Shown here: piece by piece, positions 1-39,793 of the stretch
Numbering within the stretch: the first letter of the stretch is position 1
How the letters are laid out: the number at the start of each line of letters is the position of its first letter
Sequence record: NC_048136.1
Reading direction: 5' to 3' (one strand)
From: Escherichia phage Ro45lw
Length of the DNA stretch: 39,793 bases
Position numbers and translations under genes: made by a program
Notes under the pieces: model-generated
What the model saw: only the letters and a program-made list of their open reading frames with translations
Databases searched by the model: none
What the model was told of the DNA's origin: nothing

Positions 1-190
1 TCTCACAGTTCAAGAACCTCAAGTCTCCCCATAGGCCCTCTTTCAGTCCAGACTCAAGGCCCTACCCCTAGACCTTCGGTCTAAACCTCAAGTCTTTGAC
101 CCAAGGTTGACCCGAAGTCTGGACCGATATGGCCTATATCTAGTGGCTGGGACGATGGGTCGGGACTATATGTTGTGTCTCCGAGTCTCT
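1..190. repeat. Left direct terminal repeat (190 bp)
   Basis: Bases 1-190 recur exactly at 39604-39793 (read by eye); terminal redundancy is typical of T7-like genomes. Confidence 0.9.
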
Positions 191-678: not shown

Positions 679-708
679 TTGACAAGCAGTAACGACTTAA
701 AGTAGTAT
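679..708 (+). promoter_or_regulatory. Host sigma70-type early promoter (A2/A3-like)
   Basis: TTGACA (679-684), about 18-bp spacer, TAGTAT, followed by GTACCACATCGAAACGACAGTGA which closely resembles the T7 A3 start region. Confidence 0.65.
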
Positions 709-932
709 GTACCACATCGAAACGACAGTGAAGCCTAACACTGAAACAGGCTAGCGAGGCGACGACAGCTAAGCGAATGTTCTTTAACAATCTGGATAAC
801 TCTTAATGTGCGCCGATAGCAAGCGACTAACTACAGGGTCTTTGAGTCTACCGCGAGACGGGCTTGACTTGAGCGACTGAAGGCCCTGACTGATAGTCAC
901 TAACACACAATTAACTTTGAGAGGATATAACT

Positions 933-1433
933 ATGGAACGTAACGCTAACGCATACTATGACCTGCTGGCTGCAACCGTTGAGCTGTTCAACGAGCGTAT
1001 TCAGTACGACGAAATAGCTGAAGGCGATGATTATCACGATGCGCTGCATGAAGTCGTAGACGGTCAGGTTCCACACTATTACCACGAGATTTTCACGGTG
1101 ATGGCTGCTGATGGTATCGACAACGAGTTTGAAGACTCTGGGTACATCCCTGAGACCAAGGACGTGACGCGCATACTGCAAGCTCGCATCTATGAGGCAT
1201 TGTATAATGATGTGCCGAACCACTCGGATGTGGTCTGGTTTGAGGCTGAAGAGGAAGACGAAGAGGATGAATACTGGGTAGTTGACGCTAAAACGGGCGT
1301 ATTCATTGAGCAAGCTGTATCTCTTGAGGTCGCTACTACATGCGCTAAAGACCACTATGCGCTAGGTCGCCACCTGAAAGTCGAAGACATCAACGACACC
1401 GTAGTGTTTGACCCTGAGGAGGACTGCGAGTGA
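933..1433 (+). CDS. 0.3: Ocr-like anti-restriction protein (DNA mimic), 166 aa with C-terminal extension
   Basis: Residues ~20-115 align with T7 Ocr (VPHYYxxIFxVMAxxGIDxEFEDSGxxPxTKDVxRILQARIYE, acidic tail); RBS GAGGA upstream; about 50 extra C-terminal residues relative to T7. Confidence 0.85.
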   Translation: MERNANAYYDLLAATVELFNERIQYDEIAEGDDYHDALHEVVDGQVPHYYHEIFTVMAADGIDNEFEDSGYIPETKDVTRILQARIYEALYNDVPNHSDVVWFEAEEEDEEDEYWVVDAKTGVFIEQAVSLEVATTCAKDHYALGRHLKVEDINDTVVFDPEEDCE

Positions 1434-1588
1434 TGGTAACTTATGGTCTCTGCCAGCACCACGTCATCAACGCCCGGATTATGGTCAAGACCGGGCAGTT
1501 AAACCACGATGCGGCTATGCGTCGCCTGAAAGCGGTCTATGAGGGCCGCAAGCGCATACACGACAGTTTGCATGCTGAGGACAAGTAA
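1433..1588 (+). CDS. Small early protein, 51 aa (T7 gp0.4-like)
   Basis: ATG overlaps the Ocr stop (TGATG); same length as T7 gp0.4 and shares YGL and LKxxYE motifs from memory. Confidence 0.5.
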   Translation: MVTYGLCQHHVINARIMVKTGQLNHDAAMRRLKAVYEGRKRIHDSLHAEDK

Positions 1589-1589
1589 C

Positions 1590-1715
1590 ATGTACCAGAT
1601 AACTTATAGCAGTGAACAGGCGTTCTACGATGGGTGCTACGAGATGATGAAGCGCGGGGCTTGCTACATGGCTAATCACCATAGCTTGACCATAACACTG
1701 ACTGGCGGGTATTGA
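1590..1715 (+). CDS. Small early ORF, 41 aa
   Basis: ATG two bases after the preceding stop, same strand, position of T7 gene 0.5; no recognisable domain. Confidence 0.35.
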   Translation: MYQITYSSEQAFYDGCYEMMKRGACYMANHHSLTITLTGGY

Positions 1716-1873
1716 GTGATAGGCGAGAGGCCACTACATCTAGTGGTCTCAAAGATTATTACTCACAACATATAGAGGTGAACTATGAACATTGGTTACT
1801 GGGTGTGCTTATCTCCGGTCATCTTCCTAATAGCTTTAGGCCTACTGGACGCAATCAAGCGAGGGTCTCTGTA

Positions 1874-2068
1874 ATGGTCTGGGCGCTTCTGGTCATCGGC
1901 TACGGGTTAATACTCGCAGTCATCACGAAAGACATCGCCAAGGCACGTAAAGTCTACCGCTTCCAGTATGTATCACTGGGCCGCTGGACTGTAAGACAAC
2001 CGAACGGACGCTTTATGCGCAACCTCGCAAACGTCTGGGACATCTCAACCTTAGGGAGTAAACTGTAA
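1874..2068 (+). CDS. Small hydrophobic early protein, 64 aa (putative membrane protein)
   Basis: ATG 1874 preceded by GAGGG; product MVWALLVIGYGLILAVITKD... has one predicted transmembrane helix; the longer ORF 1712-2068 needs a TTG start. Confidence 0.4.
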   Translation: MVWALLVIGYGLILAVITKDIAKARKVYRFQYVSLGRWTVRQPNGRFMRNLANVWDISTLGSKL

Positions 2069-2394
2069 TGAGTAAATCTTATGGCATCAACTTGGCCCAT
2101 GCACTTGACGCAGACCTTAATCTGCTTTCAGCACTAGCTACGGGCTACCGTCACGGGACCTCAAGTCACACCGTTCGTCAACAGCAGGAGCGAGACCGGG
2201 TGCTGCAAGCAAGACTCCGGGCCGAGGGCCATAAGGCCGAGCTGATGTGTCTGGCGTATGGTGGTCGACCACGCACTGACGATGGTAAACTTCTGGTCTC
2301 CGGCTGGCGGGCAATGGACCAGCGGGCAGACATCAAGCACACGACACGCGGTGACTTCAGTCATCTGCACGCTAACCCACTGATATGCAAGTAG
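2068..2394 (+). CDS. Hypothetical early protein, 108 aa, at the gene 0.7 position
   Basis: ATGA overlap with the upstream stop, RBS GGGAG; far shorter than the T7 gp0.7 kinase, no kinase motifs seen. Confidence 0.5.
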   Translation: MSKSYGINLAHALDADLNLLSALATGYRHGTSSHTVRQQQERDRVLQARLRAEGHKAELMCLAYGGRPRTDDGKLLVSGWRAMDQRADIKHTTRGDFSHLHANPLICK

Positions 2395-2399
2395 TTTGG

Positions 2400-2422
2400 A
2401 CTAAACTATCACTAAAGGACTC
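2400..2422 (+). promoter_or_regulatory. Phage-RNAP promoter-like element (variant CACTAAAGG) upstream of the RNA polymerase gene
   Basis: CTAAACTATCACTAAAGGAC differs from the genome consensus at one position (-2 T to A); overlaps the inverted repeat 2408-2417 / 2461-2470. Confidence 0.45.
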
Positions 2423-2497
2423 AAGGTCGAAAGACTCTAAGTCAGGACTGAAGTGAAAGACTTTAGTGATAAGACAATAGTTATAAGGACTTTAAGT

Positions 2498-39603: not shown

Positions 39604-39793
39604 TCTCACAGTTCAAGAACCTCAAGTCTCCCCATAGGCCCTCTTTCAGTCCAGACTCAAGGCCCTACCCCTAGACCTTCGGTCTAAACCTCAAGTCTTT
39701 GACCCAAGGTTGACCCGAAGTCTGGACCGATATGGCCTATATCTAGTGGCTGGGACGATGGGTCGGGACTATATGTTGTGTCTCCGAGTCTCT
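39604..39793. repeat. Right direct terminal repeat (190 bp)
   Basis: Exact copy of bases 1-190. Confidence 0.9.

What the first reader, a model, noticed from the sequence alone, without database searches (positions are those of the whole stretch)
933..1433. Ocr-like anti-restriction protein with an extra ~50-residue C-terminal extension
The first ~117 residues match T7 Ocr closely, including the acidic tail, but the ORF continues (WVVDAKTGVFIEQAVSLEVATTCAKDHYALGRHLKVEDINDTVVFDPEEDCE) before its stop. This could be a fused second module, possibly extending anti-defence activity beyond type I restriction-modification. The next ORF starts on the stop (TGATG).
Basis: partly seen in the sequence, partly recalled or inferred. 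Interest (0 to 1): 0.55.

Follow-up and report, generated by a model that had tools for sequence, protein, structure and literature searches.

The report
K1F-type Ocr with extra C-terminal domain
The first gene of this T7-like (K1F-group) phage genome encodes the DNA-mimic anti-restriction protein Ocr joined by an acidic linker to a small folded domain of unknown function; this long form is real and common in related phages but is often deleted, and I found no study of it.

Summary
The ORF (933-1433, +, 166 aa) is exactly as described. It is not a frameshift artefact. The same long gene 0.3 occurs in about 70 deposited phage genomes, including K1F itself, and in at least 120 protein clusters.

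Homology to T7 Ocr ends at about residue 94. Residues 105-113 are an acidic linker of variable length (3-17 aa in relatives), not T7's tail. Residues 114-161 form an autonomous beta-beta-alpha-beta-beta module (AlphaFold pLDDT 92), followed by a conserved acidic EEDCE tail.

The module is under purifying selection (dN/dS 0.37, against 0.17 for the core). I found it only fused to Ocr. This holds in Kayfunavirus and, in a diverged form, in Ebrios, IME15 and Aeromonas phages. It has no significant sequence or fold relative of known function.

Within Kayfunavirus, long and short alleles are interleaved. The short alleles are precise in-frame deletions between acidic-codon direct repeats.

The "fused second module" reading is supported structurally. 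No function is known. My best guess is an accessory, host-specific binding domain coupled to Ocr. Interest is modest.

The parts
679..708 (+). Sigma-70-like promoter consensus match (TTGACA-18 nt-TAGTAT) upstream of gene 0.3. It is a candidate early host-RNAP promoter, analogous to T7 A1-A3.
   Evidence: Consensus scan, 10 of 12 matches. T7 has host promoters A1-A3 in the equivalent position. This is a pattern match only.
919..925 (+). Shine-Dalgarno-like GAGAGGA, 7 nt upstream of the ATG.
   Evidence: Read directly from the sequence.
933..1433 (+). Gene 0.3, long K1F-type allele (166 aa plus stop).
   Evidence: ORF list. It is 81.7% identical over its full length to K1F gene 0.3 and 95% identical to the best public cluster.
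933..1226 (+). Ocr DNA-mimic core, residues 1-98.
   Evidence: Pfam PF08684 covers residues 7-94, E 1.5e-30. PDB 1S7Z (T7 Ocr) matches at E 2.5e-27. Identity to T7 Ocr is 62% over residues 17-94. AF2 predicts helices 7-26, 35-59 and 75-93. Net charge is -17. dN/dS is 0.165.
1227..1244 (+). Conserved DVVWFE motif, residues 99-104. It is shared by long and short alleles of the K1F/K1E-type clade and replaces the distal part of T7 helix D.
   Evidence: V101, W102, F103 and E104 are nearly invariant in 120 sequences. The motif is present in short forms. There is no alignment to T7 beyond residue 94.
1245..1271 (+). Acidic linker AEEEDEEDE, residues 105-113. Its GA-rich codons act as one arm of the direct repeats at which the module is deleted in relatives.
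   Evidence: Length varies from 3 to 17 aa among homologues. It has the highest column entropy, 0.97 bits. Deletion junctions are shown.
1272..1415 (+). C-terminal module, residues 114-161, fold beta-beta-alpha-beta-beta. Conserved signature: YWVVD-x2-TG ... A134 ... G145-x-H147 ... VEDINDxVVFDP.
   Evidence: AF2 on the module alone gives pLDDT 92 and pTM 0.73. Within the full-length model pLDDT is 85-91. dN/dS is 0.369. It is found only at the 3' end of Ocr genes.
1416..1430 (+). Acidic Cys-containing tail EEDCE, residues 162-166. It is also the C-terminus of the short alleles and forms the second arm of the deletion repeats.
   Evidence: Cys is present in 105 of 120 sequences.
1433..1588 (+). 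Gene 0.4 homologue (51 aa). Its ATG overlaps the gene 0.3 stop by one base.
   Evidence: Identity to T7 gp0.4 is 41%, E 5e-8. phrog_5058 matches at E 8.7e-27. Homologues carry PF26807 Phage_T7_GP04.

Best explanation
This is gene 0.3 of a complete K1F-like (Kayfunavirus) T7-type phage genome, in its long allele.

**Architecture.** An Ocr DNA-mimic core (residues 1 to about 98) is followed by the DVVWFE motif and a flexible acidic linker. Next comes a roughly 48-residue autonomous alpha/beta module, then an acidic EEDCE tail.

**Shown**
- The architecture is real and widespread.
- The module folds on its own in prediction and is under purifying selection.
- The module occurs only fused to Ocr, in at least two diverged phage lineages.
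- It is an accessory part. It is repeatedly removed in-frame by recombination between the acidic-codon repeats that flank it.

**Inferred**
- As in T7, the protein is made first after DNA entry, from host promoters.
- It dimerises through the conserved core.
- It blocks type I R-M, and probably BREX, by DNA mimicry.
- The module hangs from each monomer, which I place at the outer end by analogy with the T7 structure. It acts as an Ocr-coupled accessory protein-binding domain that adjusts what the mimic engages in particular hosts. It could add a second contact to a defence complex, or mask Ocr from a system that senses it.
- It is not part of the DNA-mimic surface itself.
For: **Identity and context**
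- Pfam ocr matches at E 1.5e-30.
- T7 Ocr structures match at E 2.5e-27, and identity is 62% over residues 17-94.
- The window is a Kayfunavirus-type genome with 190-bp terminal repeats.
- Gene order 0.3/0.4 and the 1-nt overlap are as in T7.

**Real and common**
- 74 phage records cover at least 80% of the protein.
- The 52-aa extension alone hits 70 records. In all 60 records listed the hit lies under the gene 0.3 CDS.
- The 120 best clusters range from 162 to 179 aa.

**Autonomous domain**
- pLDDT is 92 for the module alone.
- The linker varies from 3 to 17 aa.
- Full-length pTM is only 0.55.

**Selection**
- omega is 0.37 (CI 0.19-0.63; 0 of 500 bootstraps reach 1), against 0.165 for the core.

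**Ocr-exclusive and old**
- The Ebrios/IME15/Aeromonas/Kc166A modules are homologous. hhalign gives probability 87%, E 3.9e-6.
- They sit in the same position behind an acidic linker.
- There is no hit in plasmids or complete E. coli genomes.
- There is no real hit among 1.84 billion representative proteins.

**Accessory**
- Long and short alleles interleave in the core tree.
- Short alleles end FEAEEDCE or FEAEESDEEDCE, with junctions inside the repeats GCTGAAGAGGA and GAGGAGGAC.

**Core sufficiency**
- T7 Ocr99, which lacks residues 99-116, still blocks EcoKI (PMC3439906).
Against: - No binding partner, activity or functional homologue was found.
- The module is itself mildly acidic (net -4), so a contribution to mimicry is not excluded.
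- The frequent short alleles, a frameshifted split allele and a deletion-fusion allele (P0083) show that phages can do without it.
- The placement of the module at the dimer tips rests on the T7 structure, not on a model of this dimer.
- The exhaustive-search negative is weakened because it did not even recover the long Ocr family. That family is presumably hidden under other 50%-identity representatives.
Confidence: 0.5

Rival explanations
1. Independent second effector. The module is a self-sufficient inhibitor of another host defence or host process. It is fused to Ocr only to be made first and in equal amounts, and its action does not depend on Ocr.
For: - It folds autonomously and is joined by a flexible linker of variable length.
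- Small uncharacterised stand-alone phage proteins give the best BFVD fold matches (E 0.02-0.1).
- The presence/absence polymorphism is typical of anti-defence accessory genes.
Against: - Detectable homologues are never stand-alone genes or fused to other partners. Hits in two diverged lineages all lie behind an Ocr core.
- The only short ORFs carrying it are broken Ocr genes.
- Fold matches are not significant by Foldseek.
Confidence: 0.2
2. Part of the mimic or a structural helper. The module lengthens, caps or stabilises a core whose helix D is shorter than in T7. It serves the same anti-restriction function and has no target of its own.
For: - Predicted helix D ends at residue 93, and homology to T7 stops at 94.
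- The linker, module and tail are all acidic: -10, -4 and -4.
- The module always travels with Ocr.
Against: - Short alleles with the same truncated core and no module are common in the same clade and in K1E/Klebsiella-type phages.
- Linker length varies five-fold and can be as short as 3 residues, which argues against a fixed geometric extension.
- T7 Ocr99 is active without its distal C-terminal part.
Confidence: 0.2
3. Functionless remnant of an old fusion or insertion, drifting and on its way to being lost.
For: - Repeated deletions.
- A frameshift allele.
- A deletion fusing the module to gp0.4.
- The amino-acid substitution rate is about twice that of the core.
Against: - dN/dS is 0.37 with an upper CI of 0.63.
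- The following positions are invariant or nearly invariant across 120 sequences: Y114, W115, T121, G122, A134, G145, H147, V150 to D152, and V157 to P161.
- Homologous modules are retained at about 31% identity in distant lineages.
- AF2 predicts a confident fold.
Confidence: 0.07
4. Sequencing or assembly frameshift near position 1280 that artificially joins Ocr to a downstream ORF.
For: One Logan assembly family has an extra G in the TGGG run at W115, which splits the gene. Errors or mutations therefore do occur at this spot.
Against: - The window has the same continuous frame as 70 independent phage genomes and 120 clusters.
- The downstream gene 0.4 is separately present.
- Indels in the linker and tail of the intact long-form sequences aligned here keep the reading frame.
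Confidence: 0.01

Closest known systems
T7 Ocr (gp0.3; Pfam PF08684; PDB 1S7Z)
   Same: - Homologous core: 62% identity over residues 17-94.
- Extreme acidity.
- Predicted helical core.
- First gene at the left genome end.
- Followed by gene 0.4 with the same 1-nt stop/start overlap.
   Different: - Homology ends at residue 94.
- The distal helix D and EYEEDEE tail of T7 are replaced by DVVWFE, an acidic linker, a 48-aa alpha/beta module and EEDCE.
- The protein is 166 aa, against 117 aa in T7.
K1F gene 0.3 and other long Kayfunavirus Ocr alleles (SH3, CLB_P1, LM33_P1, RDN8.1, SAKp10309)
   Same: Same architecture end to end, at 82-91% identity over the full length. This window is one more member of the group.
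   Different: - Only allelic differences. Here the tail is short (DPEEDCE, without the AAA insert) and residues 135-136 are T-T.
- None of these proteins has a described function for the module in the literature searched.
Short K1E/Kayfunavirus/Klebsiella-phage Ocr alleles (108-119 aa)
   Same: Same core, same DVVWFE-type motif and the same acidic Cys-containing tail.
   Different: They lack residues 114-161. The Kayfunavirus ones are precise deletions between repeats that flank the module.
Long Ocr of Ebrios, IME15, Aeromonas phages and Kosakonia phage Kc166A (172-183 aa)
   Same: Ocr core, acidic linker and a homologous module in the same place. hhalign gives probability 87%, E 3.9e-6. The shared motifs are W-x-V, G and VED, plus an aromatic residue two positions before a conserved Pro.
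   Different: - The modules are only about 31% identical.
- The tail is different.
- Ebrios carries a CDS annotated as SAM-dependent methyltransferase, and IME15 one annotated as SAM hydrolase, just upstream of the long Ocr gene.
Small alpha/beta folds: ClpS / L7-L12 C-terminal domain, T4 Dmd antitoxin, AcrIF9
   Different: - Sequence identity is only 10-23%.
- The matches are not significant by Foldseek or by a sequence profile.
- ClpS matches over only half of its own length.
- No functional residues can be mapped.

Membership tests
Ocr DNA mimic (Pfam PF08684, T7 gp0.3) | Significant sequence match to the Ocr domain | tested here: met
   PF08684 scores E 1.5e-30 (106 bits against a cut-off of 25), covering residues 7-94. 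PDB 1S7Z matches at E 2.5e-27. BLASTP to T7 gives 62% identity, E 1e-33.
Ocr DNA mimic (Pfam PF08684, T7 gp0.3) | Very high net negative charge that mimics the DNA backbone | tested here: met
   Net charge is -17 over core residues 1-98 and -35 over the whole protein.
Ocr DNA mimic (Pfam PF08684, T7 gp0.3) | All-helical core fold | tested here: met
   AF2 predicts helices 7-26, 35-59, 63-66 and 75-93. Helix D is shorter than the stretch that aligns in T7, and the region 51-80 has low confidence in the monomer model.
Ocr DNA mimic (Pfam PF08684, T7 gp0.3) | Homodimer shaped like bent B-DNA | not testable with these tools
   Only monomer prediction was available. The segment PHYYHEIFTVMAADGID is conserved with T7 PHYYADIFSVMASEGID, which is compatible with dimerisation.
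Ocr DNA mimic (Pfam PF08684, T7 gp0.3) | Inhibition of type I R-M (and BREX) by occupying the DNA-binding site | not testable with these tools
   Needs an experiment. It is inferred from homology only.
Ocr DNA mimic (Pfam PF08684, T7 gp0.3) | First early gene at the genome left end, upstream of gene 0.4 | tested here: met
   The gene starts at 933 in a genome with 190-bp terminal repeats. T7 gene 0.3 is at 925-1278. The downstream ORF is a gp0.4 homologue.
K1F-type long gene 0.3 allele | Ocr core, acidic linker, the YWVVD...VEDINDxVVFDP module and an EEDCE tail in one ORF | tested here: met
   Full-length identity is 81.7% to K1F and 90.5% to SAKp10309.
T7 gp0.4 (PF26807), as a possible source of the extension | Sequence similarity of the extension to gp0.4 | tested here: not met
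   gp0.4 is encoded separately at 1433-1588. The extension gave no Pfam, PHROG or NCBIfam hit of its own.
ClpS / ribosomal L7-L12 C-terminal domain fold | Significant structural match over the whole domain | tested here: inconclusive
T4 Dmd antitoxin | Significant structural or sequence match | tested here: inconclusive

The most novel reading that the evidence does not exclude
The C-terminal module is a new anti-defence determinant that works together with Ocr. For example, it could stop Ocr-sensing abortive systems (PARIS, Ronin, the EcoR22I type) from recognising the mimic. Alternatively, it could extend inhibition to a defence complex that the bare mimic does not block. Under this reading, its frequent loss and regain across Kayfunavirus reflects host-by-host selection. 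The natural long and short allele pairs would then be a ready-made experiment.
Probability: 0.25. Interest if true: 0.65.

Novelty: new variant of a known kind. Interest (0 to 1): 0.35.

Why it matters
Ocr is the textbook DNA mimic. It is now known to inhibit BREX and to be the trigger sensed by PARIS and other backup systems. All mechanistic work uses the 117-aa T7 protein.

A sizeable group of therapeutic-candidate coliphages carries an Ocr with an extra conserved domain of unknown function. This group includes K1F, CLB_P1, LM33_P1 and many sewage isolates. The domain is polymorphic between otherwise near-identical phages.

If the domain changes which defences are blocked or triggered, it would help explain host-range differences among K1F-like phages. 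It would also be a compact, easily tested anti-defence add-on. If it does nothing measurable, the finding is only an annotation refinement.

Tried and rejected
- **Frameshift or assembly artefact.** Rejected.
- **Extension is a fused gp0.4.** Rejected, because gp0.4 is separately encoded. One public variant, P0083, does fuse the module to the gp0.4 C-terminus by deletion.
- **Internal translation start for the module.** The only ATG in the linker (1267-1269) is out of frame and stops after 4 codons (sequence).
- **Sequence families.** Pfam, PHROGs and NCBIfam give nothing for the module alone.
- **PDB sequence profile.** Only noise.
- **Exhaustive profile search of 1.84 billion representatives.** It returned 3 hits, all long repetitive proteins; the two I read match only a short repeated motif. 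The search did not recover the long Ocr family itself, so its negative is weak.
- **Word-indexed search with a module alignment.** It returned only two short ORFs. P0124 comes from a frameshift-broken Ocr gene. P0125 (41 aa) is an N-terminally truncated module whose context I did not examine.
- **A compensating gene in phages with short alleles.** None was seen in 17 early regions. This is a small sample.
- **Literature.** Six full-text searches and several papers read gave no mention of the extension. The K1F genome paper is not held.
- **Plasmids and complete E. coli genomes.** The module is absent from both.

Full report
**1. Observation**

The ORF is there exactly as reported. An ATG at 933 is preceded by GAGAGGA seven bases upstream. 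The stop TGA lies at 1431-1433, giving 166 codons, and the C-terminal sequence is WVVDAKTG...VVFDPEEDCE. The stop shares its last base with the ATG of the next ORF (TGATG).

That next ORF (1433-1588) is a homologue of T7 gene 0.4:
- It is 41% identical to T7 gp0.4, E 5e-8.
- It matches phrog_5058 at E 8.7e-27.
- Its relatives carry PF26807 Phage_T7_GP04.
- T7 genes 0.3 and 0.4 have the same one-base overlap.

**2. Context**

The window is a complete T7-like genome. Its first 190 bases recur as its last 190 bases, and a single-subunit RNA polymerase gene starts at 2453. The left 6 kb is about 90-91% identical to Shigella phage ESh23 and Klebsiella phage SAKp10309, and 85-87% identical to many phages classified as Kayfunavirus, the K1F group. 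Gene 0.3 sits where it does in T7 (T7: 925-1278). It lies downstream of a sigma-70-like consensus match at 679-708, which is a pattern match only.

**3. How far the Ocr homology goes**

- Pfam ocr (PF08684) matches residues 7-94 at E 1.5e-30.
- T7 Ocr structures (1S7Z and others) match at E 2.5e-27.
- BLASTP against T7 gp0.3 taken from a T7 record gives 62% identity over residues 17-94 and nothing after that.

After residue 94 the protein has a motif absent from T7: NDVPNHSDVVWFE, with W102 and F103 nearly invariant. The acidic run 105-113 follows. In 103 distinct relatives this run varies in composition and in length, from 3 to 17 residues. It behaves as a linker.

**4. The extension is a domain**

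AlphaFold2 on the full-length alignment predicts the Ocr helices 7-26, 35-59 and 75-93. After a non-regular stretch it predicts strands 114-118 and 124-129, helix 131-143, and strands 148-151 and 157-159. pLDDT in this part is 85-91, but pTM is only 0.55 overall.

Predicted on its own, the module gives pLDDT 92 and pTM 0.73 with the same beta-beta-alpha-beta-beta order.

Across 120 sequences the following positions are invariant or nearly so: Y114, W115, T121, G122, L131, A134, Y142, G145, H147, V150 to D155, and V157 to P161. Variation concentrates in the second strand, the helix and the loop after it. Net charge is -17 for the core, -10 for residues 99-113, -4 for the module and -4 for the tail.

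**5. It is real, common and selected**

- tblastn of the whole protein finds 74 phage records that cover at least 80% of it. These include K1F (81.7% identity), Citrobacter phage SH3, Hafnia phage yong1 and Klebsiella phage SAKp10309.
- The 52-residue extension alone finds 70 records. In every record listed the hit lies at the 3' end of the gene 0.3 CDS.
- In the large protein collection, the best 120 clusters are all 162-179 aa.
- On 12 long-form coding sequences, Nei-Gojobori dN/dS is 0.165 for the core (bootstrap 95% CI 0.10-0.26). It is 0.369 for the module (CI 0.19-0.63, with none of 500 bootstraps reaching 1). dS is similar for both, at about 0.4.

A frameshift or assembly error is excluded.

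**6. It is an accessory part that is repeatedly lost**

Many close relatives have short alleles of 110 or 114 aa, ending ...VVWFEAEEDCE or ...VVWFEAEESDEEDCE. These consist of the core, the start of the linker and the same Cys-containing tail.

At nucleotide level the two junction classes fall inside direct repeats that flank the module in long alleles:
- GCTGAAGAGGA(C) lies at the start of the linker and before TGCGAG in the tail.
- GAGGAGGAC lies at the end of the linker and again in the tail.

In a neighbour-joining tree of the first 300 nt, long and short alleles are interleaved within the Kayfunavirus clade. This indicates several independent deletions, or exchange by recombination.

Two further natural variants point the same way:
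- A Logan assembly family has an extra G at the W115 codon. This splits the gene into a 117-aa Ocr and a 59-aa ORF.
- Cluster P0083 (7 contigs, up to 38.9 kb) has a deletion joining ...GRHLK of the module to AVYEG... of gp0.4.

In T7, Ocr99 lacks residues 99-116 and still blocks EcoKI (PMC3439906). The core is therefore expected to be a competent mimic by itself.

**7. It travels only with Ocr, and is old**

A diverged module of about 31% identity sits behind an acidic linker in the 172-183-aa Ocr proteins of Escherichia phage Ebrios, Stenotrophomonas phage IME15, several Aeromonas phages and Kosakonia phage Kc166A. Profile-profile comparison of the two groups gives probability 87%, E 3.9e-6 over 48 columns.

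No homologue was found in any other context:
- Nothing in 72,556 plasmids.
- Nothing in 5,426 complete E. coli genomes.
- A profile search of 1.84 billion representative proteins returned only three long repetitive proteins; the two I read match only a short repeated motif. That search also failed to return the long Ocr family itself, presumably because the family is represented by other sequences at the 50% clustering level. Its negative is therefore weak.

**8. What the module resembles**

- Pfam, PHROGs and NCBIfam give nothing for the module alone.
- A profile search of PDB sequences gives only noise.
- Foldseek against PDB has no hit better than E 1.7.
- Foldseek against BFVD gives only small uncharacterised phage proteins at E 0.02-1.

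I read these as a generic small alpha/beta unit, not as evidence of function. In the literature I could search, I found no paper that mentions the extension.

**9. Mechanism**

Shown:
- The architecture.
- The autonomy of the fold in prediction.
- Purifying selection on the module.
- Exclusive linkage of the module to Ocr.
- Recurrent in-frame loss.

Inferred:
- Early expression, dimerisation and DNA mimicry against type I R-M and BREX, by homology with T7 Ocr.
- Location of the module towards the outer end of each monomer, because helix D runs away from the dimer interface in the T7 structure. This rests on my knowledge of 1S7Z and was not computed here.

The module is always found with Ocr across diverged lineages, yet it hangs on a linker of very variable length and can be dropped. 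I therefore favour an Ocr-coupled accessory binding domain with host-specific value. It could add an extra contact to a defence complex or mask Ocr from an Ocr-sensing system.

Rivals are an independent effector fused for co-expression, a structural extension or stabiliser of the mimic, and a decaying remnant. A search of 17 early regions found no gene that co-varies with the long or short allele.

**10. Verdict**

The extension is the ordinary K1F-type allele, deposited since the K1F genome and present in dozens of phages. The window's copy is therefore one more member of that group.

Relative to the characterised T7 protein, it is an architectural variant whose extra domain remains undescribed and is easily testable. 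Interest is modest (0.35). It would rise if the module turned out to alter which defences Ocr blocks or triggers.

Noticed in passing
window 1-190 and 39604-39793: The first 190 bases are repeated exactly at the very end. The window is therefore a complete T7-like genome with direct terminal repeats.
   Followed up: partly
window 1433-2453: No gp0.7-type protein kinase lies between gene 0.4 and the RNA polymerase gene, and no ORF there exceeds about 120 aa. Two near relatives, SAKp10309 (long Ocr) and vB_VIPECLMC06 (short Ocr), carry a kinase gene at this position. The early region is a mosaic of small ORFs, and none co-varies with the Ocr allele.
   Followed up: partly
protein P0083 (7 contigs, longest 38,886 bp); corresponds to window ~1380 joined to ~1530: A public variant has a deletion that fuses the module after ...GRHLK to the C-terminal half of gp0.4 (AVYEGHKRIHDSLHAEDK). 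The join is apparently at the short similarity RHLK/RRLK. It destroys the last two strands of the module and the N-terminal half of gp0.4.
   Followed up: partly
L034 2667-3180 (Logan SRR33193083; also L035, L036): An extra G in the TGGG run at the W115 codon splits gene 0.3 into a 117-aa Ocr and an overlapping 59-aa ORF that encodes the module. It is seen in three runs of one project. It may be a real mutation or a shared error.
   Followed up: partly
window 1416-1430 (tail EEDCE) and short alleles in L002, L006-L013, L016-L021: A single Cys embedded in the acidic C-terminal tail is conserved in both long and short alleles, and in more distant short Ocr proteins (EDCDD, DGCND). No explanation was found.
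   Followed up: no
GenBank records OM355495 (ZH4), OM937123 (CY1), LT594300 (LM33_P1), MZ398247 (IME177), OR594182/OR594184 (SHAK phages), PV611674: The long gene 0.3 is annotated in these records as 'protein kinase', 'similar to N4-like RNA polymerase', 'NinH protein' or 'hypothetical protein'. These are annotation errors for an Ocr homologue.
   Followed up: no
L001 802-2025 (Ebrios) and L051 1-877 (IME15): These phages carry, just upstream of their long-form Ocr gene, a CDS annotated as SAM-dependent methyltransferase (Ebrios) or S-adenosyl-L-methionine hydrolase, gene 0.3 (IME15). If these are T3-type SAM hydrolases, the phages hold two different anti-restriction genes in tandem. I did not check the annotations.
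   Followed up: no
window 1871-2068: The 3' part of the 1712-2068 ORF encodes a small protein with a hydrophobic, probably membrane-spanning segment (VWALLVIGYGLILAVI). It belongs to a family present in nearly all the related early regions examined (family F2).
   Followed up: no
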